This document shows positions 7,961 to 45,318 of a stretch of DNA of 64,000 nt, piece after piece. Made by a program: the position numbers and the translations under genes. Source of the DNA: Catajapyx aquilonaris. Taxonomy: Eukaryota. The stretch is from the NCBI GenBank assembly GCA_000934665.2, contig JYFJ02001494.1:1-64000 (forward strand), in the 5' to 3' direction. The notes under the pieces were generated by a model, which did not search any database, was not told where the DNA came from, and was given only the letters and a program-made list of their open reading frames with translations. Positions within the stretch are counted from its first letter, which is position 1. Every line of letters begins with the position of its first letter.

Positions 7961-8623
7961 TCAGCCTACAAATTTGTCCACATGTTGATTGCACGGCTCG
8001 GTCTGAAAATAAAACGTGAGTGTCATTCTGTAATAATTAATAAGTTATGCATCGCGCATAATATTATATGAATGAGAGCTACGCACCTACGCTGATCGGT
8101 GAAAGAGAAATGTTGAGATGGGTTGTAGTAATAGGGAATAGTTCCTTACCGTGGTGAGTTCCTTCAAAGCCTCTTCCATGACTGACACTTCCGGGTTATT
8201 CGTCTTCTTGAGGATTGGCATGGCGCATTTGTAGTAGTCCCAGCCAGCTCTGATGGCGAGAGTGATGGGGAACGCGTTTGGTTGTCATAATAGGGTTGGC
8301 ATGTCGGATTACGCTGTGCACGTACAAAGAGTGACTTACATGCAGTCGAGAAGGGTGAGCTCCTCTTCCGTCATCTTTCCCTCGCCTTCCTCGTGCGCCT
8401 CCGCAGCTTCACCCGCTGCGTGGATGCAGACGTCGAGCTCTCCCTGTTCGTCGTCGGCTCCAGCCAGGGACAAGCACGAAGACGCCACAGTAGTTACTAA
8501 TGGCCGGGTATAATAATATTATATAACGAGAGACGGCATCAGGGGTTAGGGCTTCAAGGGTTAATATTACTTGCACATATTAATAAGGAGACGCTGGAAG
8601 TGGCGATGACTAGCGTGGGACAC
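7961..8623 (-). CDS. Secreted 4-Cys family member 1; exons 8623-8571, 8496-8340, 8249-8150, 8002-7961; start exon not found
   Basis: ...CPTLVIATSSVSLLICAITTVASSCLSLAGADDEQGELDVCIHAAGEAAEAHEEGEGKMTEEELTLLDCIAGWDYYKCAMPILKKTNNPEVSVMEEALKELTTTEPCNQHVDKFVG*; intron phases 1/2/0. Confidence 0.72.
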
Positions 8624-9490
8624 CTGTTTATTTTATCTTTTATTTTGTCAAAGGACTCAGATGAGTACTCAGAATATTCACATACTTTCGGTGAAAAAAA
8701 TAAATCGTGGGATTTTTTAAATGCAATATTTCAGAATTTTAAAACAAGCAATAAGCAAATAAATATATTATAATTATTATGGCGTCAATTACTAACGAGT
8801 TTAGAGGCACTGTATACATGCCAAAGTTCAACTGAAAGCACAATCATATACGAGTAATGTACTGGAGAAATGTGATGCGTTTAAACTAATAAGTAGAAGT
8901 GCGCTTTTTGGAATGCATTATTGTTATTCTTCCGCGAATGGGATGGATTATTCTAACAGAAAGTGTGGCCATGCAATTGGCCTACATTAATTAGGCTTGG
9001 AATTTTTTTAGATCCAAATAACTTATTATTAAAAATCTGAAATATGCCATTTTTAACGACATTTTTCTCCTTCAAAGTAATCGTTTCAGGTCTCATCAAT
9101 AAATTATAGCACAAGAATATTGTTTTCTGAATCGATTTGTTGAATTGGGACATGAGTATTTCGACTGACTAAATAGTGTTAAATTTCAAAAATGCATTAA
9201 CTCTATTGAATTACTCTTATTGCGTGCTTTCATTTGACTTATACTGTAGGTAAGTCATGTGTATAAGCCTACCTCTGTGTTCTTCTGTAATAAAAGAAAT
9301 ATTCTAGACATCATTTCAGTACATGTCGTTGTTTTCTATAGCCTGCATTTGTGACGAATTCTATTGAAAAATCGTAAATTTAGCAATTTAGTGAGGTCAC
9401 TATTAAATTTTCACCGACATTCTAAGAGTTTGAGTTAGATACAACGAACGGTTTTGACATGAAGACCACACATAATCCGACAAAATATTT

Positions 9491-9661
9491 CTGCCGTCAG
9501 ATGTAAGAAGACCGCAACTCAAAAACCAGTAAGGGTGAAAGTCGCATGTATGCCCTGCACTAATCCCCCCTGACTCAGAGGGGATTTGTGCAGGGCGTGC
9601 ATGCGACTTTCACCCTTACTAGTTTTTGAGTTTAATACGGTCTTCTTACATCTGACGGCAG
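9491..9661. mobile_element. Palindromic MITE, family P
   Basis: Near-perfect fold-back ctgccgtcagatgtaagaagacc...ggtcttcttacatctgacggcag; other copies at 46598-46762 and (end only) 1-21. Confidence 0.85.
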
Positions 9662-9893
9662 ATTCGTATTTGTATGCAACACCGAGCCTACTGTTTTGGT
9701 CTTTACAAAACGCTCATTCACCAGCCAGCAGTCCGATATGATGGAGTTATACCAGAAATAGTTCTGGACCGACACAAACTCGACAAACTTACTAACATTA
9801 ATACCGATATGGTTAAAATGAGATCATTTGAAGACCTCGGGGGAAGAACAATCAGGTGAAAATGAGTATTCAAATTTTAAATTTCGAAGGCCC

Positions 9894-9896
<3 letters not shown>

Positions 9897-9959
<63 letters not shown>

Positions 9960-10270
9960 TGTAATAATTGTGGGGGTAGTGCTCACCCTCAGGGTATCTG
10001 CACGGACCTTTATTTATTCTTTATAGTACAATCGTACATCGGAACCTTTAACGAAGCGTCCCGGGCCCACGGGTAGGGTGACAGGAGGGGATGTGCAAAG
10101 TGCGTGGTCGGTCCCCGGGTGGTTTAGTCTAAGGAAATACCACCCAAGACGAAGCCAGAGACGACCTAAACTCTGCCCGAGATGAAGGGGGTGTCCCCGG
10201 GCTGGGATCGAACCCGGGAGCCTTAACATCCGTGGGCGCATACGTTACCGCAGCGCCACTCCGCCTCCTC
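9897..10270 (-). mobile_element. tRNA-derived SINE, family A, with (ATT)n tail
   Basis: Reverse-complement homolog of 49186-49561; B-box GGTTCGATCCC; flanking direct repeat cgaaggYccataa. Confidence 0.85.
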
Positions 10271-11336
10271 CGAAGGTCCATAAGATTATAATCGCAACAC
10301 CCACTTCAATAATAACTTATGATCATTACTCCACAACCACGACCAAACCATCATATTCTACACTATAATGAAAAGTATTTTCCGAGATATGTAACTCATT
10401 TTTTGACACAAAGTGGACCTTGATCGTTCTTCCTCCGAGGTCTTGATTTTACAGACATCCCAATGTACATGATATTGCAAAGATTTTTCCAAGTACCCAC
10501 AACTTAAAAGTAAATTTACAATACGACTGGATTTAACTGAGTTATAGTGTGATGCTATTTAGGATAAATGGCCTTATAAGAAGCTGATAGTGTCAAAAGA
10601 ATACATATCGTACCTAAAAAGAGTATCCAGGTTTTCATTGCGAACTTTCCGAGGCAAAATCCAATCAGGAAATGAATCAAGGTCATGCTTTTACCAGTAT
10701 TTATTGTTTTTACTAGTTATGTAAAGGAAATAAAATAAACACTATGTCTACAAATCTCCAGTGTGACTGCTGGTTAGTGCAGCTTCTATTCGCTGTCGAT
10801 AGACCTACACCGGATATATCTCCTTCAATGAGTAGTAAAGTGCGCCTGAACAATGCAGCTTATCTCTTGCTTCACAACCTATTGTGAGCGCATTACGATT
10901 AATTCCGTATAGTCAACTTTGCAGCAGTTGAAACTTCCTACAGTGCTGCACCTATAGAATACATGCTGGTGTTACAGTGTACGAGATGTTTCAAATAATG
11001 CTGTTTCATGCTAACATCTATAAGCAATGTTTATTAGTCTGAATAACTGCAACAACAGTCATGGATATCCAACAATGCAGTCATTCCGATGATTGTCGCT
11101 CTTCGCCTGGGATGCAGTCGAGTTATTCCTTTTCTGTGTGGTGCCGCATTCACATTATGATGTGCATCTCGCACCTTTGCTGTTGGGGGCGAAATGCAAA
11201 GGAGAGTGTTTAGCAGCAGACACATTGACTTATAGAACAATTCCAACAGCGCTGTGATGTAGAGAAATATTAATAATAAGTCCATTCATGAATTCGTAAA
11301 TATTTTGAGGATTCTTGGGGTTAATTCTCTCATTAT

Positions 11337-12277
11337 TCAAATCCAGAAAAAATCATCATTGCAGAGCAGCTATCTATGATATTGCAAAAATGTGTCGTTT
11401 GTGCAGCATTGTAATAAATGTGAAATTTTTTACTGGATCTAACACAAGGAGAATGGTCAACTCACTTTGATAGTGGCCTTGACGTTTTCCAGTTTCTTCA
11501 TTACCTTCTCCTTGTACTCAGATCTCTTCAGCGCATTGTATTCCTTTTCCAGGCAGTGCAAGTAGTGCTCCTCGTCTCTGAAAACATGGTCAAAAATATT
11601 ATTACGAACTCATTTGAGGGCGATTATTCAAGTGAAACAGCCAACAAAGCACATTTCGTGATAATAATTACGCGCAGATGTAAATTTCTACGAGTTCATG
11701 ATCCTTTTCCTGTTCGGCAATCCTTCTTGACTTCAGGTAACGTTCGTAACAGTCATGTACGCTGCCTTCAACCATCAAACACACTGTAAAATTATTGCAG
11801 GAGGAATAAAATTAACGAATAAATTCAAAAAAATCATCGAGCGACAGCAAGATAATTGTAGCAATTGCAGAAATCATACAACTGCATAAATTCCATGTCG
11901 CAATGTGTTTATAATATTTCTACCTAACAGTGTAAATCTTGAATATATTGAAAATCACTTCTCCAGGGTGTTTCACTGTCACAATATCCAAGAAGATATA
12001 GAAGGGCAGTAGTTATGGGATACAGCGAGAGAAAGTTATGGGTTTTGAAATGGATAACAACCCATTATAATGACCACATTCACTTGGAGTGATTATTATT
12101 GCTTCTCTTTCAAATGTTTTCTGTGGCAAAAAATCCCAGATATTCATCCCACAATATTCGCACTACACCGATGTGCAAATAACAATGTGAACGCAAAAAG
12201 CTGCTGAGAAATATCGTATAGTGAATGTTGCATTACTCACCCAATAAAAATGCGAGGATGCCTGTGAAACCCTTCAT
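11337..12277 (-). CDS. Secreted 4-Cys family member 2; exons 12277-12241, 11783-11672, 11577-11466, 11369-11337 (last exon tentative)
   Basis: MKGFTGILAFLLVCLMVEGSVHDCYERYLKSRRIAEQEKDHELVEIYICADEEHYLHCLEKEYNALKRSEYKEKVMKKLENVKATIK(LLCNDDFFWI*). Confidence 0.8.
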
Positions 12278-12690
12278 GATTTCACTTTAGTGTGGTAAAT
12301 GACATACATGCAATTCAACAAACAATTACTGCAGATAACTAATATCTACAGAAATATCCAATGCGTAATTGGTTATCTATCTTAATTTCCGGTTACGCAA
12401 TGGGATAACAACGGACAGACAAAATGCAGATTTATTTACGCTGATGTGAAGCGTGCTGGTGCTCGATAACGATTATGTATAGCTATTATCTGGTACTCCA
12501 GTAAATTTTGCGTCGATTGCTAAATATAAGGACCCAGTATATGTCTTGGTAATAAAATAATGTGCCTTGAAAATTGCTGATATCGTGTCATTTATTTATG
12601 AAGGCCTTACAGAACAAGCGCATGCTTTCGAATCGTTTTCATCGTGACAATTTTAAATAGATCTTGTGATATATTGTGACGTCACTCAGC

Positions 12691-13379
12691 CTAGATCAGG
12701 ATGGTGTCTGCACATCGGTGCTGTTGGAATCAAAAACATAGTATTATAATGATAATGCGTATGCTTCGTTGCATATTTAACAACACTTGGAGTATACTCT
12801 ATAGAATGTCTAGATGATAAGTCAATAAGTGTGCACAATATGAATTGCTCCTGATCACGATATTGTGTGACAATGTGGCCGATAGTGGATTGATCAGGTC
12901 ATTATTAGTGACTTACTCTGATCACATTTTTCTGGTAATGGAGCTGGTTGAGGACTTGACCCTTGTACTGAGAGTTTGGAAGTTGGTCGTACTCGTTTTG
13001 CAGGCACTTCAAATAATGCTGCTCGTCACTTGACAGAAAAAAACACAATTATATGTAACAATGCTGAGGACCACATGACTGAATATAGGTCAACTATACT
13101 ACGAGTATGTGTGCTTGTACTCACGCGCAAACGTAAATATCTCGCAGCTCCGGATCAGATTCTTGTTCGTCGACATTGCGAGTCATGAGGTAACGTTTGT
13201 AACATTCTTCCACGCCGCCTTCCACAACAATCGCCATGGCGGCTATTCAAAGCAAAAACACTGGCACTGTTATGTATATAGGCCTACCTACAGCATAATA
13301 ATTGCAGTTACCCATCATGTTAAAACATTACGCTCATACTAACCCACAGCAGCAAAGACGAGGATATAGAGAACTTCAT
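12691..13379 (-). CDS. Secreted 4-Cys family member 3; exons 13379-13340, 13242-13125, 13028-12917, 12720-12691
   Basis: MKFSISSSLLLWVTAMAIVVEGGVEECYKRYLMTRNVDEQESDPELRDIYVCADEQHYLKCLQNEYDQLPNSQYKGQVLNQLHYQKNVIRHRCADTILI*; the exon 1 frame/donor is ambiguous. Confidence 0.8.
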
Positions 13380-14410: not shown

Positions 14411-15336
14411 CTAACGCTTGAGGTACTCGCTGCAGTGTATCTGAAAGTGAGTAAATATTTTTAAAATCATGTTGTCGGAGAGCCCTTCTTCTTCAGATGT
14501 AATATTGGCACCGAGCAATGCATAGCGGGATAAAAGCCTATATACTTATGCTCTGAACATTCCTTCGTTTACAAGTAGTTGCAGATTATCTACCAAAGAT
14601 TACTATTCATACGTATAGTTTTTGTACGATATAGCCAACATGAGTAAATCACGACCGTTGAATCCTGGTTAGACAAGTGCAATCTGGGCTAAGCCGATAT
14701 GAAGTTGGACAAGGTGTATAAATCCCATCCTTATTCTTGTCACACCACGTAACGGTCGTCACGTATATACACACCTCCAGCTGGACGCGTTGCTTTCTGA
14801 TCTGGTAACGAACGCTGTCTGGGACTGCCGAAGGATTGGCTTCAGCTGCTTCTTCCATGCAGTTCAGAAAGCCATCCATTAACCTATAGACGAAATTGCA
14901 TTATCAGATGGATGAGCATATAAAATCATCGGTAAATGGAAAACCTCGAGTTAATTGCAACCATTTACTTACTGGCATCCGGTCCTTGTCTCCAGGCGAG
15001 TGTCTTGAGCGCGACTCATTTCGTTCTGAAATCGCTGAGCGCATTCCAGCATCATGTCTCCATTCGCTTCCAGCAGCATCACGGCTGGAAACACATTCAT
15101 TACAGACTATTGGGTACATCATTATTTATTGCTTATAATATATTTCTTTACAGTGACACTAAGAAACAATGCAGCTTCTCTGTGGTAAAAGCAGCTCAAG
15201 AGTTGGCAAAATTCTCGAGAGGTCAACCGAGTTTAGTACGACCGGAACTAAATTAGACAAAAGCACCGTTGCCAAATAAGCAAATTATTGTAAATAATTC
15301 ACCTGCAACAACGATAGCAACAACGAGCAGCTTCAT
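14411..15336 (-). CDS. Secreted 4-Cys family member 4; exons 15336-15303, 15084-14973, 14883-14775, 14440-14411
   Basis: MKLLVVAIVVAAVMLLEANGDMMLECAQRFQNEMSRAQDTRLETRTGCQLMDGFLNCMEEAAEANPSAVPDSVRYQIRKQRVQLEIHCSEYLKR*. Confidence 0.88.
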
Positions 15337-15638: not shown

Positions 15639-16401
15639 ATGAAGCTGGCTTGCATTGTTGCACTACTAGTCTGTGAGTATAATAATTATATGCCATCTCT
15701 GGCAAGCACACTATAGCAACCAAAGGTCATCTGAAACTCAGAACAGTCACATTCGATGTTTTAGAAAATAATTCTTCAAGCATTACAGTGGACTGTTCAG
15801 AGAAGTGACTGGACAATGAATGAGACGGTGGATTGATCTGTTTCAGTCGTGACCATCGCTGAGGTCAGCGGGTCACTGGATGACTGCTATCGTGAGCTGC
15901 GACGGGAACGCAACTGGGCCGAGAGGGAATCGGACGGTGAGCTGGTCAACATCTACGTGTGCGCGTGAGTATAGACGATACATCGCTGAAGAATATTCTA
16001 CCAGTAGTTTCAATTAAATGGTTTAAGTGTTCAGGTAATTTGAAGAGGGTTTTGTGCATTTCCAGTGACGAGATGCAGTACTTGAAGTGCGCCGACCGGG
16101 AGTTGGCATTGCTCCCAGACTCTGCGTACAAGAGGCGTGTGGCCAACCAGGTCGAAGAGAACAGGGGTGTACTCCGGGTAAGACCACTTACTTAAAAATT
16201 GCAGTATACATGCAATGCACCGTACGACTCGTAACTAACATATTTATTGCAAGTTTAGGACTCAATGAATGCTTTGATTCGACGTAATAATATAGCAGCT
16301 ACCTATAATAGTTTCATAACTCGTGACACATTATACGTGATGTAACGGCCCAATCTTGATGTCCATTGCAGGAAAGGTGTGGTCACCTGATCAACATGTA
16401 A
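15639..16401 (+). CDS. Secreted 4-Cys family member 5; exons 15639-15672, 15847-15964, 16066-16177, 16372-16401
   Basis: MKLACIVALLVFVTIAEVSGSLDDCYRELRRERNWAERESDGELVNIYVCADEMQYLKCADRELALLPDSAYKRRVANQVEENRGVLRERCGHLINM*. Confidence 0.88.
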
Positions 16402-16787: not shown

Positions 16788-17158
16788 ATGACGTCTATCT
16801 GGATCATACTCATTGTGGCAGGTAACAATCCTCCAGTGTTGTGATTAGGTCCTATACTGATTTCCTTTAGAGCAAATTATTTGTTTGTATAGTTGCAGAA
16901 TAATTCTGGTGTTTTCGAATCACAATAATAAAATTGTCACGGGGATTGCTAATGACTTACAGGTGCGATGACTATCGGAGCTGATAGCTACATGAGTTGC
17001 ATGGAACAATACCAGATGGTGTTGCGAGAATCACGAGACGAAGGGAATTCATTGGACACCGAATCTGGATGCAGGTTTGCCACCTTTTCCAAGCGGGAAT
17101 ATAATATGGGGTCAGACAGCGCATGTTGCCCCTTTTGTGCCTTACACAACAAATAGCC

Positions 17159-17204
<46 letters not shown>

Positions 17205-17450
17205 TGTATACATGGTGTTTCCATAGGCTTCTCCAGGAGTTCATAGACTGTCTGGATGCCTCGATGTCTGAGATGAGATCAAATGAGATTCCTCATGACC
17301 TTCACTATCAGGTGGCAGCGGCCAGGAACATTCTCACGGTGGGTATATAATTATGTGATGCCTTATTAGTGCACAAATGAAACCGCCCCCTTGCAACACC
17401 TCCATCTTCAATAATTTCAGATCAACTGTTTAGGCCGTGGTTTAGGCTGA
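16788..17450 (+). CDS. Secreted 4-Cys family member 6; exons 16788-16821, 16963-17074, 17227-17338, 17421-17450
   Basis: MTSIWIILIVAGAMTIGADSYMSCMEQYQMVLRESRDEGNSLDTESGCRLLQEFIDCLDASMSEMRSNEIPHDLHYQVAAARNILTINCLGRGLG*. Confidence 0.88.
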
Positions 17451-17695: not shown

Positions 17696-18263
17696 TTAAT
17701 CCATCAGGTACTCCAAGCAATGTTTCTGAAACAAGATGCAGCGTGGTGTGATTGGGTGTTCTTTTGTTTATTGTTACTACGCCGAACATTTCAAGTCCGT
17801 GAAATCATTCCATTACCTTAAGAGTATGGCGCCCTTTCTTGAGCCGGTCTGGCAACCCTGGAGGAATATTGTCAGCATATGGATGGTCCACAGCAAACTC
17901 CGAGCAGACCAGCAAGCGCTGGGTGGCCCTGATTGAATAATAATAACAATAACAATAATAATAATAGGCTCAGAGTGATACTGAAAAGTGTGAACCACAG
18001 TAGCTACCTGCAGAGTGATTCAACTTCTGATATGTGGTTCAGCTCCTGTTGGTACGCCTGGACGCATATTGCTAGTTCCTCATTTTCTTTCTCCTGACCC
18101 ATCATCACAGCAGCTGTCACAACAATACAAGTTTATTTAAATTATTTTAACCTTCATTGGAAGACAATACACACTTAGCCTATGATGTCTGCACCAGAAT
18201 GGCAGCATGGATGAATGCGAATGTCAGACCTGCGATGTAGAGGACAGCCAGTACTTTCAACAT
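17696..18263 (-). CDS. Secreted 4-Cys family member 7; exons 18263-18230, 18113-18008, 17928-17817, 17725-17696
   Basis: MLKVLAVLYIAAAVMMGQEKENEELAICVQAYQQELNHISEVESLCRATQRLLVCSEFAVDHPYADNIPPGLPDRLKKGRHTLKKHCLEYLMD*. Confidence 0.86.
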
Positions 18264-19180: not shown

Positions 19181-20268
19181 TTAGCGCACGTGTCCTTGGC
19201 ACTGGGCCTGGAAAGAAATTAAACAAAATTATTATTTTCAAGAGAATCAGTCGAAAACTGCAAGTGACGAGTAGTAAGACGTTAATTGTGATTAACTGAC
19301 CCTGAGCTCCTGCCGTCCTTCTGCGAGCTTCTCCCTGAGGCCTGCTGGCACATCCCAAGAGTTCATGTTATTGGCTGCTGCTTCCACGCAATCGAAGAAT
19401 TCCTTGGTCACTCTGCCAAGAGAAAAAGACCAATATAAGAATTTATTTGGAGCAGGACTTGAAAAATGAATTCAATAGTACGATTTGTGGTTATTTTCCC
19501 TGCTGGATTCAATAAACGATGTAACATTGATTTACGGACCACAATGTGGGATTTTTTTATGGCTTAAAAGAAGAAGTCACCGTGGCATCCAAGCATAAAC
19601 ATAATATCATCAATGGCTATTATGCTGATTCAAATGGAATTTAACTTATTTATTCTAAGAATTCGCCGGAATTTTCATTACACTACCTGCAATTGCTGGC
19701 AATAATGCTGAATACCAAATGGTGCCGTTTTTTCCGAAATTTAAATAAATACGTTCCCTATATTAATGAGAACATGACAGGTCGCAATGAATGACTCCTG
19801 AATCTTAGAGAATTGGAACTTGGTGTAAGATGAGTGTACGTTATGCCAAAAAAATAAATAGCCTGTGAGAAGCTAATTCCACCAAGGAAATCTCACGGGT
19901 TGAAATCCACTAGAAACTATAACAGGATGATTTTAAAGTTTGCCGAAGTGGTGACTTATAGATGACACAGAACTATATATTATATCGGAGGGGTTAAAGA
20001 CAGTACCGGCAAGCGGCTGAGATGCTGGACACTTGGTTGACGGCAGATTCGAATGTGCGGACGCATTGCTGCATCCTAGCCATCTGACCTTCGGCTTCGA
20101 AGGACACAGCGGCTGGAAGAGGAAGAATTATTATGAAGGGTTATTCATATTAGGTGGCACAAAAGAAAAGTTGGACAATATTATTAACGAAGGAGATGAT
20201 AGTTACTTGACTTATGCAGCACAATAACACTTACCGATCAGGCAAAGGACGAGAAGGACCTTCATCAT
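19181..20268 (-). CDS. Secreted 4-Cys family member 8; exons 20268-20235, 20112-20007, 19412-19301, 19207-19181
   Basis: MMKVLLVLCLIAAVSFEAEGQMARMQQCVRTFESAVNQVSSISAACRVTKEFFDCVEAAANNMNSWDVPAGLREKLAEGRQELRAQCQGHVR*. Confidence 0.88.
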
Positions 20269-22879: not shown

Positions 22880-25003
22880 ATGATTGTGACGCTGTTCTTC
22901 GTCGCTTTGATCGGTGAGTACCTACTACTAAAAATCACAACTGAGTTTTTAAGGCAGGTTGTCCGAAGTGACCGTTTTGGGCCATCACTTGATCGTTGCA
23001 ATGATGTCAATTGATTCAAAGAGTATCAGTTGGAAGTATTACATCTTCCTTGCATCCGGCCTACTGCTTTAAGTGGGCAGACTATATTCAAAGGCAAGTA
23101 AATCGAGTGCCAATTATTCGTGGCAACAGAATGTGACGACATCTTTCCGACAGGAAAGGATGTTCATGTGACATTCAGATAGCGACGTAATTCATCTGCC
23201 CACGTACAAGTCATTTTGTAACGGAAAAGATGAACGTGCTGGCTATACACTCCGTTTTTTACACGAGCAACACTCTACTCCACGGTGCACAGGTCGTAAG
23301 CTCGAAACTCTTCCAAAAATATTAGTATCTACACCATTCCATCTACTGTCCTTCCATATGTCAAAAAACGTTCGGGGAAATTTTATGCTGACACTCTATA
23401 AGACACAGGAAGAAGTTAATATGAGAAAAAGGGCATCTTGCTAAGGTTCTGACAGTAGTAGCTAAAGCAACATGGCACATTATTATTTGTCCAAAACTCT
23501 TTTTGTAAAAAACATGCAGAACATATCGAGCATGGCAACAAAGACGACACTTAGTCTATACTGCAACATGGCAACATCGCAGATCAGAGCGATTGTCGTG
23601 TCGATGTTACTACTGTTGATGAAATAATATTTTAAAGAAATATTGACTATAGTTTCTTACTTATAACTAATTATTCCTAATTCCTAATTATTATAATTAA
23701 GATTTATTCCGACCGTGCCAACAATAATAAGGGCCTTGCATACGAGGCAAATGCATAATATATTGTAAATACGGACAGCTAGGGTAATGCCACATAATGT
23801 AATGACATCGTGTAAAATAACTGCTACGTCACCATTGACTCCTTAGGAAGTTGAGACAGCTCAAGTAACCTCTCCCATCGCAATTCTATATAAATTGCTC
23901 GAAAGCAAACTGTGCCCCATAACACATAATAATAATTATAGCCTATAATAGCTTTGATGGTTTCATATCCAGTTAATGTCCAGAGCATTCGTGAATATAT
24001 TTACTGCAGTTTCCCCGTTTCTGGAGGTCGAAGGTGACATCCAGGATTGCATGAAGACACTCAGCGACGAGCTTGGTCCCATCTCTCATGATGGAGACAG
24101 CGTGAATATCCGCACCGTCTGTCGGTAAGACACTCGCAGACATAACAATATAATAGTTTTCTTATTATTATTATGGCTCCATATATAATTTTGCATGATC
24201 ACCGCATTATTCGTGTTACAGCTTGGCATTGTTAACTCCTGCTGGGCCGGTTGTTTATTGCAGGATTCAGGAGAGATTTTTCGAGTGTACTGACCAGCTG
24301 AGTGACCAGCTGACCGAGTCTCAACTGATGAGTCTGGAGCCCCTCCGAAGAGCCCATCTGGTCGGTATATATAGCGGCAGTGTATTGTTCCCAATGCATT
24401 GTTGATGTTTTACTCTGGAGAAGGGAAAGGGAGATCGGGGTGAGACAGTTGTATGCAAACTGAAAAATCCATACTATAGTTTAAAATGTGGGACATCACC
24501 TAATATTCTGAAAGGCTTACCTCACGTCAAGAGAGCTAACTAACTTTTAAATGTTAATGTGCGTGCAAAATGTCAATTATTTTAATAAGATTTACATCAG
24601 ATTCAGCATGTTTGCAGCTGCAGGCAATAATAATTTCCCTTGTCTAATAATAATTTATGGATAAAGTCATGCAGTGTATACAGGTACTGGTTTGGATGTG
24701 CAATATGATCATCAAACAGTTGCGGAATTCAAATATTTCATACTAATATTATTAAATAAGGTTCACAATTACTTGCCCATCCATTAATTACATTGCAATG
24801 TACAATATACATCATTAGTTTTCTGCTACAGCCGAGTAAAAATTTTGAACTTCAGTTTGCAAACAGGCGTTGCAAGCTAATGATGAATATAAGGACATTA
24901 TGCTGCAGTTATACACCTTATTATTCTTACTCATTGATTTGAATCCGCGGTTATACATTTTCTATTATAGGAAGTATGCGGGGGCACATCAGATGGCAAC
25001 TAA
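22880..25003 (+). CDS. Secreted 4-Cys family member 9; exons 22880-22913, 24010-24124, 24264-24360, 24971-25003
   Basis: MIVTLFFVALIVSPFLEVEGDIQDCMKTLSDELGPISHDGDSVNIRTVCRIQERFFECTDQLSDQLTESQLMSLEPLRRAHLEVCGGTSDGN*. Confidence 0.84.
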
Positions 25004-25971: not shown

Positions 25972-28252
25972 ATGAAGGGACTTTGCAGCCTCGTTTTTTT
26001 CGCTCTCTTTGCAGGTAAGTGCCGCGTAAAGTTATGCAATAATTATTGTGTACCTACTTTTATGGGCGATGTTTTATTATTATTATTAATAGGGTTGTGT
26101 TATGGAAGCGGGATGGACTCGTCGATGCAGGATTATCTCTTGGTCTTGTCGGTCATAAACGAGGACTGCACAGAGCCACTCAAGAACCAGATGCGATGGA
26201 CCGCCTTGGAGACGGACGTAAAAAAGAAAACCGAGTTGAGCTGCAGGTCAGATCAATCATTACAGATTTGCTCCATACAATTTTTTTTATATATTATAAA
26301 TATTATGACAATAGGAGGGTTCGAACACGGATTGTTTCACTCGTCCTTGGGGTTTTCAAGTCGGAGAAGAGTGTATACACTCTTCTCCGACTTGAAAAAC
26401 CCAATGATTGCTTTCATCATGCTCCAATACATTAGTATACTAATGCACTGGAGCATGATGAAAGCAATCACTCAGCGATGGATAACTATAACAATAATTA
26501 GAGTCTTGTGGCGTCAGAACCTGCTCCAATTGTAGCAACTTTAGATATTATTCCAACATGGACCAAACTCTAGGTGACAAAATATGATGGCGTTTATCAG
26601 ACTTGGTGATTTCCGGTACCTTTTGTTCTCGTGGCATCCCAAAACTTACAAGATATCTTGCTCTGCACCCCCAAACCTGAGACCTTCCGGGCAGGGCTCA
26701 TTATACTGTACATTGTCGCGAATTAAATTTCTGCACACTAATTTTAATCATAAGCATCACAAGACGAGAAAATGTCGTTTACAGGTATACGGTGGTCAGG
26801 GAGATAAAAAGTGGGTCCGCGAGTAAAAGTGTTGTGATTTAGTTGGGACGAAGACGCTGTTGTGATTTAGTTGGGACGAAGACGCGTCTACAAATTCGGC
26901 CCTTTTGACCACTCCCAACACTCCCCGTGACGTCACAGAAGGTCTATTACGTCATGCTGCTCTGCCATTCCCTCTACTTATCCCTTTCCAATTATGCTTT
27001 TTGTGGCATTGTTTCGGGGAGGAAGTTTCTATCCTATCATCGCACGTCATATCTAGTTTCATTTTTTAAAATGTCATTCACATCCATTAGTTATTTTGGA
27101 AATCTTGTCTTTGTTTTGTGAAGAATGATGAGGATGATGCCTATTTAGGCTGAAGGGGTTCCTCCCTCCGCGGCGTTTTATTACGTGCAAGGCCAGGAAA
27201 TGATTGCAACTAACATTATTTGACACATACTGCATTTACAGGATAACAAAAACATGAACATGATCATTCCAGGACAGACTGCTGATGCATTGTTGTATAT
27301 ATTTCCAGGGCTGAAAAGGCTTTCTTGGACTGCGTCGATGCTGTCATGGAATACATGCCCGCCGCCTACAAGGAGAAACAGATGCAATCTTTGGCTTTCA
27401 GCAAGTACCATTTGATGGTATGTTCTCTCTCTCTCTCTCTCTTGCTATTGCCCATCTTTCTTTCAAAGAAGGCACTATATATCAGCAAATAATTTAACAG
27501 TAATTATTCAAGTACAAGTAAGCCTCGATTTAAGGCTTTTCATTTTACGACCATTTTTGCTGGAATCGTAAAACGAGGCCTACATGCATTAATCCCTTTT
27601 GCATGGCCAGCGTGCATGGTGAATCACACAACACCAGCAGGACATCCAGCATCCAGTGACTAGATTAATTCGGATCAATATTGCAAAATTAATACTGAAT
27701 ATTATTATAACTGGCCGCACTATTTATGGAAAGTGGTGCTATCGCAAACTATAGATAAACGAATAGCGCCCAAACTTCCGGGTGGTCATTATTTCTTCCC
27801 CCTACATTGTTATATGTTATGACACACCCCGTGGCGTGATGTAAGCTTCGTAGTTATGTCACCAGCAGCAGGCCTATACTTTTGAATGAAAATATTGGCT
27901 TTCCATAATGCAATCCACATGCTCCAAATTGCCCCAATTGAGCATGAACTGCTGATACAGGTTCATATGAGTCACGAGGGATACAGACATGCACATTGTA
28001 AGCCCATAAAAGGCCTAAAGTTTTAACGAGTAATAATATTAATAACTATATCTTATTTTCTCTCCCTGTCCCTGCTGGTTCCAGGCCCCATGCGACGAGT
28101 ACTTCAAGGATCAGAAGCAGATTAAGTTCTCGATCAAGGAAGTGGATTTCATACTGAAGGAGGGATTCCGCGAGGTTGGCGAACTCGAGATGCGACAGAA
28201 GAAGGCTATGGTTCTCAGCCAATTCATGCAAAGTACTGGACAGAGCCAGTAA
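25972..28252 (+). CDS. Secreted 4-Cys family member 10, N- and C-terminally extended; exons 25972-26014, 26093-26246, 27309-27417, 28085-28252
   Basis: MKGLCSLVFFALFAGLCYGSGMDSSMQDYLLVLSVINEDCTEPLKNQMRWTALETDVKKKTELSCRAEKAFLDCVDAVMEYMPAAYKEKQMQSLAFSKYHLMAPCDEYFKDQKQIKFSIKEVDFILKEGFREVGELEMRQKKAMVLSQFMQSTGQSQ*. Confidence 0.84.
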
Positions 28253-30569: not shown

Positions 30570-33500
30570 ATGGCGGCGTGGCTGCGGATCTGCATCGTGG
30601 CCCTCTCAAGTACGCATCACCTCTCTTCATATATTATTATTATTAGCATTATTATTACCATGTCCTGCTGTAATCAGCGCGTGTACCGAGTGACCTTTCA
30701 ACCTACTTTTTCCTCAGTCGTTGTTTGTGTCCGCGGTGACCTCTCGACCTGCGTTGGAGAACTGAAGGATGAACTGGATGTGGCGCAGTCTGAGGACAAC
30801 GTCTACTTGAAGAACAAGCATGCCTGCTGGTAAGTGGAGTTGTAACAGTAGTGCCGTAGGATTCTTGGGTGCTGACGACGTCGCACAATATAGCTTTACA
30901 ACAATGTTGGTATATGAATCAACATTATTAGAGGCCAGAGGCGTCAACACTCAAGTTCCCTTGCCGAGAATGCCACATCAATCTGGAGTGTGGGAGGTAA
31001 CACTCTGATCTCACATTGCACCACTCATGATTTAACCCTAAAACCTATACGGCTTGTTAGCTAATAATATTATTGTTTCGAATAACAAATTACGGCTTCA
31101 GTGTATACGACAGGGTACAACCGTAGCAGGTTGGGATAAGGCGTCCGACTGCTAATCGGGAGGTCCTGCGGGTTCGAATCCCGGGGGCGGCAACCCTGAC
31201 CACGGTCTTTCTAGGGTAATTCCGGGGTCGCTTCCGTATATAATAGGCCACAGCCGCTTCCTTCCTTCCTTCCCTATCCTTGGAGGTTGAAAGGCAGTGC
31301 TTGCCCAACCTCTTTAATATCAATTAAATTATAAAGTGTACGACAGGGTACAGGCAGATAAATTACTTTACGCTCTCAGCACATCCTCATGAATATAGCT
31401 TCAACACTATTATTGTACCTCCACTTATTATATACTGTACACAGACTAGCTATAATATGTTGTATAGTATACAATAGTTATATATTTTCAGTTCCGCAAG
31501 AAGTGATGTAGCCTTTTTTTGCCATTGGCGACTTGCTTATCAATGGCGACACGACGGTGACGCCATATGGCTCTTTATAATAATAGCGCCAAAGTATCAC
31601 ATCCCATTAAGCCATTAATGGCAACGACCGATAGACTTATAATATTGCATGGGTGGGTTATAGTTCACACATGCAAAATAATCAAAACCCTCTCTCTTTA
31701 TCAACTGGAATTATACCTCCAGCGATCGAGTGATGTTATAATCGTTCAGTACACATTATCTATTCTATAGCATACCCATTTTTGGAGTTTCAGTTTCCAG
31801 TCTTACCTTATTTTGCTTATACCGCCATTTAAAATATTGAGACATGAATGGAATTCTGATTTTTCTCCGAATGCTGCATCCTGCAGGACTTCCATTGCAT
31901 GAACATTCTTTACGGTCCATTGTATGAAAATAATGCGACGAGTATTTTTAATTAATATCAATCGCTGTAAGTATAGGCCCTAATGAACAGCACTTTATAA
32001 AATGCAGTCACGTATCCTATATAACTGCCTAAATTCTCGCGATACGGCAGATTAGGCTGATTTGCACCACTGTCACCTAATCGAACTTGTCACAAAAGAA
32101 TCACCCCGACTATACAAACTGTGCCGTGACGTGTAGCACATGCAGGGACGGAACATTATCACGTAACCCTGCGCCTGCAGTATATTATACTTGTTGGATG
32201 TACGTAATGAAATGAGACATGAACTACTACAATAATTATTATGTTGTATACTGACTCTCTTATATGGGACTTAAGTCTGCTACACACGATGAGCGTTGGT
32301 TGTACTCAGCAGCGAACTTTACTTCTTGAACCAAGAAGGACGTTGACATCAAGTTTAATTCCGATTGCGACTTAACTTACATATACACAAAATCCTTAAG
32401 TGTGGAAATTGCACATACTCGCATGTCAATCAAAGCCGTTTTTTTTTGTGCGTGTCTTAATTTGATGATGACAGTTCCGTTAATGACGCCTTTCTGACAC
32501 CAGCTCCTGATAAGGGGGTCGCTGATTTTCGGCTCCTTTGACCTCCCTTACCCCCATGCCACTCACGCACATGCTCTCCCTGGGCCGGGTCCTCCATCCC
32601 TCTGGAAAGTTATATGTGTAAGACCAAAAAAGGACGTCACGATGCTGCTGAACCCCTTCCAAACATCTTTTTTCTTGAGAAATGTCATTTTTTTGTGATA
32701 TTATGTGAAGAGTATGCTTGCTGTAACGAGGTCTTTGCGCTGATGTCAAGATCGACTGACCCCCTCTCCCGTCATCATGGTCAGTCAAGCTGACCTCAAC
32801 TCCCTGTCACATTCCCTGACACACTTCGTGGACGAACTCTAAAATGCTCTTTGACACAATACTCATAAATGAAACATTTCGATTCTCTCTGTCTGCTGGT
32901 CTCTGTCTGTATGTTGTATAGTAGGTAAATTATGTAAGGTTGTAAACGAAATACATAAAAACATTTTCCTGCTGGCACCACATTAGTTGCGCCAATGGAT
33001 ATTGCAGAATTCTCGGCAGAATTGTTTCCACGCAACCCTGTTTGGCAGTATGCATAGCGAACCGCGTGATATCTCATTTATAACCTATAAGTCATAAGTG
33101 ACTCTAATTATTACATACCGTTTGAAAAAAGGCAAGGCATTCACAGTATAATAGTTACTTATATATGAATTAAGTAGTTGTGCTTATAGTAGGCCTACAC
33201 AAACAAATAATATTGTGATATGACATATAGTACGCGTATATTAAAACAATGATTCTCTGACCGATTCTACAATACTATTCCTTGTATGATGATAAAATCA
33301 TGAACACTGCTTCAACAGTGATATCCATCGAAGAATAACAAAGCAAAATTATGTTGCAGCATAATATTATTATAGCCTATACTCATTCCAGGTATAAGAC
33401 ATTCCATTCTGAAGGACACGAGAGCCCCCTGCTATAATTATCATGTATATAGGCCCATGCTTTTTATTATAGGATTCTTCATCATCAGGTATACACCACC

Positions 33501-34870
33501 TTCACAATATATTAATTTCTGAAAGTACAACCATACTTTCTTTCTAATACAGTATAATTATAGTCATAGTGATTGGCAGAAGAGATATGCGACCATATTC
33601 TATATGTTTGGCTGCATTGTATAGTTGTATAAGATAAGTCGGAGGAAGATGATGGGACTGATGGGGAAGACGCCCCAATCTTTTACTTTATACATAGGAT
33701 ACTGTTAATCTTAGCTAGTAGTACCGGCTGCTAGTACTGTGTGTATATCACCAGTGGTTTGTACTACGTAATAAATTATTGGGTTGCAGATTGCTGTGTC
33801 CTATACTACAATAATTATAATGTAGTATTAATTTTCTGCTTCCACCATTGGGCGATTTTGGGACATGCATATACAAATATAGGGTGGATTAATCACTATG
33901 CACCACGGACGGCATTAGTCACGGCGCCAATACTATGTGGCGCGGTTTTTGTCCTATCTCATCCTGGGTAAACAACATACTGGTATTTACCGGTACAACA
34001 GAAACCACATTTTGTTCTCTGTTTACGCATTTCTGCAATTTAAGAACATAATAAATTATGAATGCAATATAAACAAAACCTGAACAAAACCATGTAGACC
34101 TGACGCTGACGTATAGGCTATACAGTACTACGATCAGAGTCTCATTTGGCTGATTTATGAGGGGTCATAATTGAAGAAAATATATGAATCTCATTTACTG
34201 TAATTATAACCTAAGTCAGATAAGTCATTTGAAGAGAATATTTTATCAATAATTTATAATGATTAATACCCGACTGTCATGAAAAGTCCTCCCTCAGCAA
34301 GCGTATAGGGCCTACAGCTTTGGAAGTGGTATCAATATTTTGCCCGTGCTTTCTACATTTGCAAACCACTTGTTTTTTTTGGAAATAGTGCCGAGGGACT
34401 TTGTGAAATGCAAAAAACCACACGGAATGCCGACGACGGCGGTTCCACGGAATTCCTAATTCCGCCGTTCCGAGCGAGCGCCACCTGCTTGGCCGCGGCT
34501 CGCTTACTTGTGCACTTTACCGTCGGATGTCGCTTCGATTAATGATATCTGTTATAATTAAATAGTCAAAATGAAATGGGGGAAAACATTTTTGGGTGAA
34601 CTTTGCCATAAGTAATATCCACATGTTCTCCTCTTCATTCCAGGGCTCAAGAACAGTTTTTCGATTGCCTAGAAAGTGACCTGGAGGCGAAACCTTCATC
34701 ACTGGGCAAGATATTAGAGCAAAGGCAGTTGAAAGAAGAGCGACAACGTATGAGGGTAAGTACAGTACCAGTTGAATTGCTTCAACTGCCTTAAAAATAC
34801 TATTTCTATTATCATCTATGTGAACGATTATTTTGCCTTTCAGATGTGGTGCAAGAGGAACCTCGAGTAA
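30570..34870 (+). CDS. Secreted 4-Cys family member 11; exons 30570-30609, 30718-30829, 34644-34755, 34844-34870
   Basis: MAAWLRICIVALSIVVCVRGDLSTCVGELKDELDVAQSEDNVYLKNKHACWAQEQFFDCLESDLEAKPSSLGKILEQRQLKEERQRMRMWCKRNLE*; intron 2 is 3.8 kb. Confidence 0.82.
31120..31338 (+). mobile_element. tRNA-derived SINE, family B
   Basis: tRNA-like head (anticodon arm ccga-ctGCTaa-tcgg, GGTTCGAATCCC), AT-rich tail, and TSD tacgacagggtaca (31106-31119 / 31339-31352). Confidence 0.82.
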
Positions 34871-35233
34871 AATATTTATTGCACGTCAGCTTCAGCTTCA
34901 TTTAATTTAATTTACAAAATGTATGTTTAGTTTCACGGAGCCCGCCGTTATCGGTGCAAACATCATGTGTCGCAGTTTATGTATGTTCATTACGAAATAA
35001 ATAGATACTTTGCCAAATGAGTGAGTCGCATACTACTGATGTAACGCCCTTGATCAAGGACAGGCGGGCCTGGACGGAAGTGATAGCGACACTGTTGCGT
35101 AACAAGCCTTAGCTTTTCGGAGTGTTTATCAAAATTGACCCACATTGCAAGCATTTCAGCAAGTCGAGATAAGTCGGCTAACTGGACCAGATCGATCTGC
35201 GATTTCCGCTTCAAATTTTTGCACGTTGACAAA

Positions 35234-37006
35234 ATGAAGATTTTTGCACTCATTTTCATCGTCATTGCTGCAGGTAAGTGCTTAACCGATTGAGACCCAG
35301 TGAAATTATTATTATTATTATTGGAGCTGGATTGAATCCAGGCACATTTTTTCAGTCAGCACTAATTATGGCTAAAGTGTAATCCTAATTAAGCAAATCC
35401 CCATTAAATCTGATCTCAACTAAAATATTAACGAATATGAACTTCTTTTTTTTTGCAAGGACGGGTTCAAGTGCTGCAGTGTTGAAAAACTCAGTCAAAC
35501 ATTAAGCGTAAATAGTGATGTTTACAAATTGCATAATCATATGCATACAAGTATCTCCCCCATTTTATTTAACAATATATTGGCGAAACATGGTTATCCA
35601 CGAAATGTGAAAGTTAAAATGTCACGACCTGAATATTAATGTCTAAATTTAATGTTCTCCATTAATTATTCGGTTCAAATACTCGGAAATATTGTTTAAT
35701 GAGGCGATGGAAAATGCTTAATAATAATAACAACGAATTATTATTTGCACGACTTAACGTCATTTTATGAGCTTAAGCGACTGGAAAGGGCTAAAAGCTT
35801 CCCTTTGTCAGGTTGAAACATTAAAATTAGATTTGAATGATATTAAATAACACTTATTCGTTTGAACTTTAACAACAATGGGCACAAGCAGTTGGGAGTT
35901 CCTCTCGCGAGGAATAAACTACGGATTCAAATCCCTTTAAATGACATCATATAGCTTATGAACCATACGTAGGCTGTAATTATTATGTTACAGCCAATTG
36001 TCGTTCCAATTAAATCCCGATTCGGCCCGATTGCTATGTTCGCATTATTGGCATCTCTTGCAATATTCAACGGCTGAAACAGTTTAATATTATTTATTAT
36101 CTCTGGCCTCTTCTTTTCCCCTTTTCCGCAGTAATCAGCTTGTGCAATGCTCAAGGCAACATAATCAGCTGCACCAATCAACTGAGGAGAGAGTTGAGTT
36201 GGGCCGCCTTCGAACCAGACACTACTCGAAGGAATGTTTATGCATGCAGGTCAGTTACCAAGATAGTGATGATTTTTTGTTTCCATTATTTCATTGCCAT
36301 CTTTCTAAACCAGTCCGGTATATAATAATTTATTCCCCACTTGCAAAGTGCAGTAGTTATCCGCGTGCCATATTTTCCCGCTTTTCATTTAAACATAGAT
36401 AGCGTACCATCTGGCACTAAATATAGTTTTAAAATGTTTTTTGGACAAACACATGCAACCATCAGCACTCTATCAAGGCGAAAATTAGGGAGAAAAATTA
36501 TATCTCCATCTGGCTGATTGTTACAAAAACAAGCATGTCTGGTACTTTCATGTTATAATTATGTGATATTATTATTATTATTGAAATGGTTGGATTTCAG
36601 AGCTCACGAAAGCTACTTCAGCTGCGTGGAGAGGGCGCTGAGCCAAACGCCATACGCATACGACAGGGAGTCTCAGAGGCGCCAGCTCACCGTCAGTAAG
36701 AACCAAATGAGGGTCAGTATATGTCTTATGGCCTTTGAATATTTTCCCGCACTGATAGAATATGAGGCCCCTTCTCGGACAGATGCCCTTGGCGGTGACC
36801 AAACTATGTTATACGTAACCAAGGGTAAATTCTCCGGGAGGATAATATATACGAGATACGCAGAGGTTGCACACTCTAAGGGTATTGGGAGGGCATTATA
36901 GTAATTATTATCGAGTATAGGTGACCTATTTGGTACAGTGACAATACAATATTATGTTTTATGCTTACAGATCCGCTGCAAGAAGTATGTCAACGGTTCC
37001 GGATAA
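35234..37006 (+). CDS. Secreted 4-Cys family member 12; exons 35234-35273, 36132-36249, 36601-36712, 36971-37006
   Basis: MKIFALIFIVIAAVISLCNAQGNIISCTNQLRRELSWAAFEPDTTRRNVYACRAHESYFSCVERALSQTPYAYDRESQRRQLTVSKNQMRIRCKKYVNGSG*. Confidence 0.88.

Positions 37007-45049: not shown

Positions 45050-45318
<269 letters not shown>

What the first reader, a model, noticed from the sequence alone, without database searches (positions are those of the whole stretch)
7961..37006. Hidden array of 12 paralogous genes encoding an unassigned family of small secreted 4-cysteine helical proteins
Seen: twelve genes on both strands, each with four short coding exons and intron phases 1/2/0. Exon 1 (34-43 nt where the ATG is found) encodes a signal-peptide start. 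Exon 2 ends one residue after Cys2. Exon 3 is exactly 112 nt in 8 of 12 genes. Exon 4 begins xxC (xxxC in member 1). The mature proteins share C-x17-27-C-x8-C-x26-31-C, usually with F/Y three residues before Cys3, and are otherwise highly diverged and rich in charged, helix-forming residues. Knowledge: this spacing fits neither classic six-Cys odorant-binding proteins (C2-x3-C3) nor chemosensory proteins (C3-x2-C4). Inference: a lineage-specific, disulfide-stapled helical-bundle family expanded by tandem duplication. Candidate roles are soluble chemosensory carriers, protein pheromones, immune/cytokine-like factors or gland secretions. The ORF track misses nearly all of it.
Basis: partly seen in the sequence, partly recalled or inferred. 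Interest (0 to 1): 0.9.

Follow-up and report, generated by a model that had tools for sequence, protein, structure and literature searches.

The report
Arrayed genes for small secreted proteins
An arthropod genome segment carries about a dozen neighbouring, very diverged genes, split into tiny exons, that encode small secreted helical proteins held by four fixed cysteines; the family matched nothing known in the tests possible here and its function is still unknown.

Summary
Ten give complete four-exon reading frames. Intron phases are 1/2/0. Exon 1 is 34-43 nt, and exon 3 is 112 nt in 8 of 12 loci. All 36 donors are GT. The cysteine framework is C-x17-27-C-x8-C-x26-31-C. Leave-one-out profiles recover 12 of 13 loci. 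Codon-position bias, and DNA similarity confined to exons, argue for old, constrained coding genes.

AlphaFold2 on the exon-2 and exon-3 peptides gives two helix-loop-helix units, so the mature proteins are probably four-helix. They are about 70-80 residues long and mostly acidic.

Exon-level searches of Pfam, the PDB and 1.84 billion proteins found no relative. This is weak evidence for two reasons. Spliced full-length proteins could not be submitted to the tools. The lineage is also poorly sampled: a neighbouring receptor gene found no close relative either. No RNA run was listed, so the junctions are untested.

The spacing fits neither odorant-binding nor chemosensory proteins. It resembles the inner four cysteines of the saposin fold, which is an untested lead. 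My best reading is an unassigned secreted family of helical binding proteins, with function open.

The parts
7961..8496 (-). g01: exon 2 8340-8496, exon 3 8150-8249 (100 nt), exon 4 7961-8002 (begins xxxC). Exon 1 not resolved (weak candidate 9023-9050).
   Evidence: AG/GT at all junctions, spacing C-x27-C-x8-C-x28-C, polyA signal 117 nt after the stop. Not recovered by leave-one-out profiles, so membership rests on architecture only.
11150..12277 (-). g02: exons 12241-12277, 11672-11783, 11466-11577, 11150-11179. Complete 96-aa ORF.
   Evidence: Both exons rank first in leave-one-out.
12691..13379 (-). g03: exons 13340-13379, 13125-13242, 12917-13028, 12691-12720. Complete 99-aa ORF.
   Evidence: Its exon-2 and exon-3 peptides were folded.
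14411..15336 (-). g04: exons 15303-15336, 14973-15084, 14775-14883 (109 nt), 14411-14440. Complete 94-aa ORF.
15639..16401 (+). g05: exons 15639-15672, 15847-15964, 16066-16177, 16372-16401. Complete 97-aa ORF. Head-to-head with g04; the two ATGs are about 300 nt apart.
16788..17450 (+). g06: exons 16788-16821, 16963-17074, 17227-17338, 17421-17450. Complete 95-aa ORF.
   Evidence: Exon 3 ranks first in leave-one-out; exon 2 ranks third.
17696..18263 (-). g07: exons 18230-18263, 18008-18113, 17817-17928, 17696-17725. Complete 93-aa ORF.
   Evidence: Exon 2 ranks first (E 0.049); exon 3 is not recovered.
19181..20268 (-). g08: exons 20235-20268, 20007-20112, 19301-19412, 19181-19207. Complete 92-aa ORF.
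   Evidence: Exon 3 ranks first; exon 2 is not recovered.
22880..25003 (+). g09: core exons 24010-24124 and 24264-24360 (97 nt). Tentative exon 1 at 22880-22913 (intron 1096 nt) and tentative exon 4 at 24971-25003. An in-frame ATG at 23976 would give a three-exon alternative.
   Evidence: Exon 2 ranks first in leave-one-out; exon 3 ranks ninth. PolyA signal lies 219 nt after the stop.
25972..28252 (+). g10: exons 25972-26014 (43 nt), 26093-26246, 27309-27417 (109 nt), 28085-28252. 157-aa ORF with a 52-residue tail after Cys4.
   Evidence: Exon 4 has a strong pyrimidine tract, begins xxC, and has a polyA signal 103 nt after the stop. Exon 3 ranks first in leave-one-out.
30570..32029 (+). g11: decayed copy. 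Exon 1 30570-30609, exon 2 30718-30829, and an exon-3 remnant at about 31970-32029 that runs into a stop. A SINE-like insert lies between them (about 31050-31320).
   Evidence: Exon 2 ranks first in leave-one-out (E 0.043).
34263..34870 (+). g12: exon 3 34644-34755 and exon 4 34844-34870. The exon-2 candidate 34263-34345 has no acceptor. No exon 1 was found. Possibly a pseudogene, or incompletely modelled.
   Evidence: Exon 3 ranks first in leave-one-out; the exon-2 candidate is not supported.
35234..37006 (+). g13: exons 35234-35273, 36132-36249, 36601-36712, 36971-37006. Complete 101-aa ORF.
   Evidence: Both exons rank first in leave-one-out.

Best explanation
This is an old tandem array of real protein-coding genes in an arthropod genome: 12 genes plus one decayed copy.

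Each gene has four short exons. Each encodes a precursor of about 92-101 residues (157 in one gene). The precursor has an N-terminal signal peptide and a mature, mostly acidic protein of about 70-80 residues.

The mature protein probably has four helices: a helix-loop-helix from exon 2 and another from exon 3. It carries four invariant cysteines. Cys1 is near the N-terminus, Cys2 and Cys3 are nine residues apart at the centre, and Cys4 is near the C-terminus.

Shown here: the gene architecture, the cysteine framework, coding constraint, and helical propensity of the two halves.

Inferred: secretion; nested disulfides (Cys1-Cys4 and Cys2-Cys3) that staple the termini together and close the central turn; and a saposin-like leaf topology that lacks the outermost disulfide.

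Most likely mode of action (my own estimate, about 0.3): a disulfide-stapled extracellular helical bundle. It would bind small hydrophobic or amphipathic ligands, lipids or membranes, possibly as a dimer. The scaffold residues stay fixed while the surfaces of the paralogues diverge to different specificities.

The stated confidence refers to the family-level description, not to the mechanism.
For: - Architecture repeats in 13 loci with 36 of 36 GT donors and 36 of 37 AG acceptors.
- Ten loci give complete ORFs although pairwise identity is only 10-44%.
- Leave-one-out profiles recover 12 of 13 loci through at least one exon, ranking above all other of the 2797 six-frame ORFs.
- Differences between paralogues follow codon positions 3>1>2, for example 58/40/24. 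pS is 0.69-0.81 against pN 0.36-0.48.
- DNA similarity between g02, g03 and g05 is confined to exons, give or take 7 nt.
- A polyA signal lies 41-125 nt after the stop in 11 of 12 loci that have an exon 4.
- The N-termini read M, then a basic residue in some members, then a hydrophobic run, then a small residue at -1. That residue is G in most (by eye).
- AlphaFold2 gives helices 2-18 and 22-29 for the exon-2 peptide (pLDDT 87.6) and helices 2-15 and 20-36 for the exon-3 peptide (pLDDT 89.6).
- Net charge is -12 to +1 in the 10 members computed.
- NK-lysin disulfide positions 66-138, 69-132 and 97-107, and the two disulfides of human granulysin, give a spacing of C-x27-C-x9-C-x24-C for the inner four cysteines (passages of PMC7597936). 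The family here has x17-27 / x8 / x26-31.
Against: - No transcript evidence exists, so no junction is experimentally confirmed.
- No signal-peptide predictor was run.
- No saposin, or any other family, matched the exon peptides in Pfam at E<=10 or in PDB sequences.
- The central spacing is x8, not the x9-10 of saposins.
- Helical amphipathicity is only weakly above shuffled controls: z is -0.1 to 2.8, and at least 2 in 3 of 12.
- A monomer of 70-80 residues is small for a ligand cavity.
- No shared promoter motif was found.
- Sequence alone gives no support for g01.
Confidence: 0.6

Rival explanations
1. The proteins are soluble chemosensory carriers that play the part OBPs and CSPs play in insects. 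They would work together with the neighbouring ionotropic-receptor genes.
For: - The proteins are small, acidic, helical, disulfide-stabilised and secreted.
- They are tandemly arrayed and very diverged, as OBPs are. Passages of PMC4145409 report OBP identity that can fall below 10%.
- Three intronless Lig_chan (ionotropic-receptor-like) ORFs lie directly upstream, at 51-1082, 1788-3686 and 5725-6753.
- Non-insect arthropods lack OBPs, and other carrier families have been proposed for them (PMC4145409, PMC5381604).
Against: - The cysteine pattern fits neither OBP nor CSP.
- Mature size is 70-80 residues, against 100-120 or more for CSP and OBP (passage of PMC4145409).
- No PBP_GOBP or OS-D match was found for the exon peptides.
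- Adjacency to receptor genes may be chance.
- There are no expression data.
Confidence: 0.15
2. The proteins are rapidly evolving secreted effectors of a gland (saliva, venom, seminal fluid or similar). Their surfaces would diversify against targets in another organism or in the other sex.
For: - Divergence is extreme on a fixed cysteine scaffold (10-44% identity).
- The array shows tandem expansion together with decayed copies (g11, perhaps g12).
- There is a precedent: aphid bicycle effectors evolve fast, match nothing by sequence, and yet have saposin-like folds (abstract of 10.64898/2026.03.27.712717).
Against: - Synonymous sites are saturated, so the divergence may simply reflect age and positive selection cannot be tested.
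- There are no expression data.
- The gene structure (four exons) is unlike the many-microexon bicycle genes; that feature is recalled, not tested.
Confidence: 0.2
3. The proteins are immune effectors, that is, membrane-active antimicrobial proteins of the saposin-like kind such as NK-lysin, granulysin or amoebapores.
For: The cysteine spacing and size resemble the two-disulfide saposin-like protein granulysin. Multigene arrays are common for antimicrobial peptides (my own knowledge).
Against: - Net charge is -12 to +1, mostly acidic, whereas NK-lysin-type effectors are cationic (passages of PMC7597936).
- No kappaB-like motif occurs within 300 nt upstream of any of the 11 ATGs.
- No saposin profile match was found.
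Confidence: 0.08
4. The proteins are secreted signalling ligands: peptide hormones, protein pheromones or helical cytokine-like factors that act on receptors.
For: They are small, secreted, helical and disulfide-stabilised. Their size is close to CHH/ITP-type hormones of about 72 residues (recalled).
Against: - No dibasic processing or amidation sites are conserved in position (by eye).
- A dozen paralogues at 10-44% identity is unusual for hormones.
- There are four cysteines, not the six of CHH/ITP (recalled).
Confidence: 0.07
5. These are not functional genes: either a chance pattern or an array of dead pseudogenes.
For: - There is no transcript evidence.
- No annotated protein matched any exon.
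- Three loci are incomplete (g01, g11, g12).
Against: - Ten intact ORFs persist at 10-44% identity with invariant cysteines.
- Splice sites are canonical throughout.
- Substitution is biased by codon position.
- PolyA signals are present, and similarity is confined to exons.
Confidence: 0.05

Closest known systems
Saposin-like proteins (SapB domain; NK-lysin, and granulysin with two disulfides)
   Same: - The domain is about 75-80 residues of four to five helices.
- One cysteine lies near each terminus and a central pair lies about nine residues apart.
- Published NK-lysin positions give C-x27-C-x9-C-x24-C for the inner four cysteines.
- Human granulysin keeps only two disulfides (passages of PMC7597936).
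   Different: - The family here has no outer cysteine pair (C-x2-C and C-x5-C).
- The central gap is x8, not x9-10, and the last gap is x26-31, not x24.
- The proteins are mostly acidic.
- No SapB_1 or SapB_2 match was found for the exon peptides.
- Neither the full-length fold nor the disulfide pairing was tested.
Insect odorant-binding proteins and chemosensory proteins
   Same: They are small, secreted, acidic, helical and disulfide-stabilised. They occur in tandem arrays with very low identity between paralogues.
   Different: - There are four cysteines with different spacing: no C-x3-C, and no pair of small CSP loops.
- Mature size is about 70-80 residues, not 100-120 or more.
- No profile match was found for the exon peptides.
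Aphid bicycle effector proteins
   Same: They are secreted, evolve fast and match nothing by sequence. They turned out to have saposin-like folds once custom alignments were given to AlphaFold2 (abstract of 10.64898/2026.03.27.712717).
   Different: There are no CYC motifs here. The genes have four exons rather than many microexons (recalled), and the proteins are much smaller. Nothing links this window to a gall-forming or plant-feeding animal.
Spider candidate carrier proteins (Ccp family)
   Same: They are a taxon-restricted family of small proteins with a signal peptide and a conserved cysteine pattern. They show species-specific expansions and gave no usable structural template (section 17 of PMC5381604).
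   Different: No Ccp sequences were available here, so no comparison was made. The paper found that family only in spiders, and the short introns here (about 80-600 nt) are unlike spider genes (recalled).

Membership tests
Classic insect OBP (PBP_GOBP) | A conserved six-cysteine pattern with three interlocked bridges, including C2-x3-C3 and C5-x8-C6.
   The family has four framework cysteines spaced x17-27, x8 and x26-31, and no C-x3-C.
Classic insect OBP (PBP_GOBP) | Match to the Pfam family profile. | tested here: inconclusive
   No match at E<=10 for 12 exon-3 and 12 exon-2 peptides (one exon-2 row was out of frame). Queries were only 27-52 residues long, and the full-length spliced protein could not be scanned.
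Chemosensory protein (CSP / OS-D) | Four cysteines forming two small independent loops, in a protein of 100-120 residues (passage of PMC4145409; the x6 / x18 / x2 spacing is recalled). | tested here: not met
   Spacing is x17-27 / x8 / x26-31. Mature length is about 70-80 residues in 9 of the 10 complete members.
Saposin-like proteins (SapB) | Six cysteines in three nested disulfides, spaced C-x2-C-x27-C-x9/10-C-x24-C-x5-C (from disulfide positions in PMC7597936). | tested here: inconclusive
   Only four cysteines are present. Their spacing resembles the inner four, and the outer pair is missing, as in human granulysin, which keeps two disulfides.
Saposin-like proteins (SapB) | A compact bundle of four to five helices, about 75-80 residues long. 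| tested here: inconclusive
   The exon-2 and exon-3 peptides each fold as helix-loop-helix, and the mature length fits. The whole protein was never folded. Fragment fold searches gave only generic hairpins.
Saposin-like proteins (SapB) | Match to the SapB_1 or SapB_2 profile, or to solved saposin sequences. | tested here: inconclusive
   No match for exon peptides in Pfam or in PDB sequences. These were short queries only.
Saposin-like proteins (SapB) | Nested disulfide connectivity (outer with outer, inner with inner). | not testable with these tools
   This needs a full-length model or disulfide mapping by mass spectrometry.
CHH / ITP neuropeptide family | Six conserved cysteines in a helical peptide of about 72 residues (recalled). 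| tested here: not met
   The family has four framework cysteines. No profile match was found for the exon peptides.
Spider Ccp family | Sequence similarity to the Dysdera Ccp proteins. | not tested
Only the main text of PMC5381604 was read; its supplements were not opened.

The most novel reading that the evidence does not exclude
The array encodes a previously unrecognised family of soluble carriers with a saposin-type fold. They would serve the neighbouring ionotropic receptors in a poorly sampled arthropod lineage. That would make them a third, independent solution, beside OBPs and CSPs, for ferrying chemical cues to receptors.
Probability: 0.08. Interest if true: 0.8.

Novelty: new variant of a known kind. 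Interest (0 to 1): 0.42.

Why it matters
If the models are transcribed, this is a whole multigene family of secreted proteins that ORF-based and probably homology-based annotation would miss, because no coding exon exceeds 168 nt and the paralogues share only 10-44% identity.

Families like this often underlie lineage-specific biology: chemical communication, host manipulation, reproduction or immunity. Its position beside a cluster of ionotropic receptors gives a concrete hypothesis to test.

On present evidence it is still one of many unassigned small secreted cysteine-framework families. The claim of novelty is limited by the short queries and by the poor sampling of the lineage.

Tried and rejected
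- RNA evidence: no RNA holder was listed for window 11000-20400. That used the only search.
- Whole genome: none is held for this window.
- Earlier scan notes: none exist for this genome.
- Word-indexed protein search with a 12-row exon-3 alignment (42 residues, each row padded with a few intronic codons to reach the 40-residue minimum), longer proteins only: none at E<=1.
- The same tool with the g05 exon-3 ORF, region 43-84: no candidate shared three words.
- Exhaustive HMMER search with the exon-3 profile against 1.84 billion proteins: 4 hits at E<=0.001. All are long proteins of 539-2051 residues. Three carry bacterial-type domains (BiPBP_C; a sub-threshold SH3_3; PG_binding) and one has no Pfam match. 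I judged all four spurious.
- Pfam on the exon peptides at E<=10: only single-member chance hits, namely ZNF512_zf-C2H2, PADR1_N and Myb_DNA-bind_6.
- PDB sequence profiles: 0 hits for exon 3. For exon 2 there were 5 unrelated hits at E 0.76-2.
- ESM Atlas with the g03 exon-3 peptide: no usable hit.
- Calibration with the neighbouring 631-aa receptor ORF. The exact sequence is not in the collection. No candidate scored E<=1e-10 in the word-indexed search. The Atlas places it among arthropod ionotropic-receptor clusters at 0.98.
- Co-folding of the exon-2 and exon-3 halves of g03 as two chains: no verdict (score 0.02). This is evidence neither for nor against.
- Fold searches with the two fragment models: no match at E<=0.001, only generic helical hairpins. 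Saposin A and D appeared among 45 weak rows.
- Shared promoter words, kappaB, GATA and TATA motifs in the 300 nt upstream of 11 ATGs: nothing above background.
- dN/dS: synonymous sites are saturated (pS about 0.7-0.8), so selection could not be classified.
- Rfam and tRNA scans of the window: nothing found.
- Literature searches found no description of this cysteine framework, but they were word searches, not sequence searches. The terms were: saposin-like / four cysteines / arthropod; candidate carrier protein / CCP / OBP-like / cysteine; orphan / secreted / four conserved cysteines / tandem / arthropod.

Full report
**Setting.** The window is eukaryotic, and no whole genome is held for it.
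- Left of the finding lie three intronless ORFs with ligand-gated ion channel domains: 1788-3686 (-), Lig_chan E 3.4e-13; 5725-6753 (+), sub-threshold; and 51-1082 (+), which has no Pfam match and is grouped with them only by visible similarity to 5725-6753.
- The ESM Atlas places the 631-residue ORF among arthropod ionotropic-receptor clusters at 0.98.
- To the right lie two intronless bHLH ORFs and a multi-exon AMP-binding gene at about 56-62 kb.
- I therefore treat the source as an arthropod. I did not try to narrow it further.

**Checking the observation.**
- A BLAST search from one seed ORF found three clear paralogues.
- A rule-based scan looked for AG|exon|GT units in phase 2 with an aromatic-x-x-Cys near the start. 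It found twelve exon-3 candidates between 8 and 37 kb.
- Matching exon 2, exon 4 and exon 1 units were then located for each candidate.
- Assembly inside scripts gives 13 loci.
- Ten are complete four-exon ORFs: g02-g10 and g13. They are 92-101 residues long; g10 is 157. Exons 1 and 4 of g09 are tentative.
- g01 lacks a resolved exon 1.
- g12 lacks exon 1 and has no acceptor for its exon-2 candidate.
- g11 keeps exons 1-2 only. Further downstream, beyond a SINE-like insert, it has a remnant of exon 3 that runs into a stop.

- Intron phases are 1/2/0.
- Exon 1 is 34-43 nt in the 11 loci where it was found.
- Exon 2 ends two bases after the Cys2 codon in 13 of 13 loci.
- Exon 3 is 112 nt in 8 of 12 loci.
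- Exon 4 begins xxC, or xxxC in member 1.
- Spacing is C-x17-27-C-x8-C-x26-31-C.
- F or Y lies three residues before Cys3 in 11 of 12 loci.

**Is it more than chance, and are these genes?**
- All 36 donors are GT, and 36 of 37 acceptors are AG.
- A polyA signal follows the stop within 41-125 nt in 11 of 12 loci that have an exon 4.
- Because the first profiles were built from the members themselves, I repeated the test leaving each member out.
- In that test 9 of 12 exon-3 peptides and 8 of 13 exon-2 peptides ranked above every non-member among 2797 six-frame ORFs. Their E-values ran from 1e-11 to 0.05, against about 0.1-3 for the best non-member.
- Twelve of 13 loci are recovered through at least one exon.
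- g01 is recovered through neither, and belongs only by architecture.
- Between paralogues, differences fall on codon positions in the order 3>1>2, for example 58/40/24. Synonymous sites are saturated (pS 0.69-0.81) and pN is 0.36-0.48.
- Nucleotide similarity between g02, g03 and g05 is confined to exons.
- Intact ORFs, invariant cysteines and signal-like N-termini at 10-44% identity mean long-maintained coding constraint.
- What is missing is any transcript. No RNA run was listed.

**What the proteins look like.**
- The N-termini read as signal peptides: Met, a basic residue in some members, 10-14 hydrophobic residues, then a small residue (mostly Gly) just before the mature start. This is by eye; no predictor was run.
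- Mature parts are about 70-80 residues. Net charge is -12 to +1 in the ten computed. Apolar residues make up 33-46%.
- AlphaFold2 was given only unaltered exon translations with the paralogues as the alignment.
- It predicts helix 2-18, loop, helix 22-29 for the mature exon-2 part of g03 (pLDDT 87.6).
- It predicts helix 2-15, loop at a Pro conserved in about half the members, helix 20-36 for exon 3 (pLDDT 89.6).
- So the mature protein is probably four helices. Cys1 lies at the start of helix 1, Cys2 at the end of helix 2, Cys3 inside helix 3, and Cys4 just after helix 4.
- Amphipathicity is only weakly above shuffled controls.

**Comparison with known families.**
- The spacing fails the OBP and CSP signatures, and the proteins are smaller than either.
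- No Pfam family matched the exon peptides consistently at E<=10.
- PDB sequence profiles gave nothing relevant.
- The exhaustive profile search gave four long proteins, three of them with bacterial-type domains, which I regard as spurious.
- These negatives are weak for three reasons.
  - The queries were 27-52 residues long.
  - Spliced proteins could not be submitted.
  - The collection holds no close relative even of the neighbouring receptor, so the lineage is poorly sampled.
- 'Lineage-specific' is therefore untested.

**A lead.**
- Published NK-lysin disulfide positions (66-138, 69-132, 97-107) give C-x27-C-x9-C-x24-C for the inner four cysteines of the saposin fold.
- Human granulysin keeps only two disulfides (passages of PMC7597936).
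- The family here has one cysteine near each terminus, a central pair nine apart, four helices and 70-80 residues. That layout is the same one.
- Aphid bicycle effectors show that fast-evolving secreted insect proteins with no sequence matches can hide saposin-like folds (abstract only).
- This remains a resemblance. The central gap is x8, the proteins are acidic, no saposin profile matched, and fragment fold searches returned only generic hairpins.

**Function.**
- Nothing here measures it.
- I favour an extracellular disulfide-stapled helical binder of hydrophobic or amphipathic ligands or membranes (about 0.3).
- Next come a gland effector (0.2), a chemosensory carrier in the strict sense (0.15), an immune effector (0.08) and a signalling ligand (0.07).
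- Acidic charge and the absence of kappaB-like motifs count against a classical antimicrobial role.
- The lack of conserved processing sites counts against a hormone.
- The receptor neighbours are suggestive for a carrier, but may be coincidence.

**Verdict.** The family is unassigned within the limits of what could be tested. The decisive tests remain to be done: spliced transcripts, full-length profile and structure searches, and expression.

Noticed in passing
window 51-1082 (+), 1788-3686 (-), 4820-6753 (+): A cluster of three intronless ORFs of divergent ionotropic-receptor type lies directly upstream of the array. The first is cut by the window start. The third is split into two ORFs (4820-5428 and 5725-6753), by an intron or a frameshift. 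Only 1788-3686 passes Pfam's cut-off.
   Followed up: partly
window 38809-39366 (+) and 42111-42452 (+); 38005-38080 and 41126-41201: Two intronless bHLH ORFs (HLH E about 1e-13). Each is preceded, about 0.7-0.9 kb upstream, by a copy of a 76-nt element (79% identical) that contains a CACGTG E-box. This looks like a duplicated gene together with its regulatory element.
   Followed up: no
window 30830-32029: The decayed family copy g11 has a tRNA-like, SINE-like insert (about 31050-31320) between its exon 2 and a remnant of exon 3 that ends in a stop. ARAGORN and Rfam call nothing there.
   Followed up: partly
window 54111-54648, 47371-48100, 21391-21834, 46595-46765 and 9486-9632: Several inverted-repeat elements that look like MITEs. 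Arms are 84-212 nt long and 88-98% complementary. Copies of one of them lie at 9.5 kb and 46.6 kb.
   Followed up: no
window 9893-9975, 17158-17205, 21960-22030, 45007-45353, 49453-49606: Long (ATT)n/(ATG)n microsatellites. One lies inside intron 2 of g06.
   Followed up: no
window about 56200-62240 (+): A multi-exon gene for an AMP-binding enzyme (acyl-CoA synthetase / luciferase type). AMP-binding matches lie at 56234-56545 and 59499-59735, and an AMP-binding_C match at 61952-62236.
   Followed up: no
window 15336-15639: g04 and g05 are head to head, with their start codons about 300 nt apart, so they may share a bidirectional promoter.
   Followed up: no
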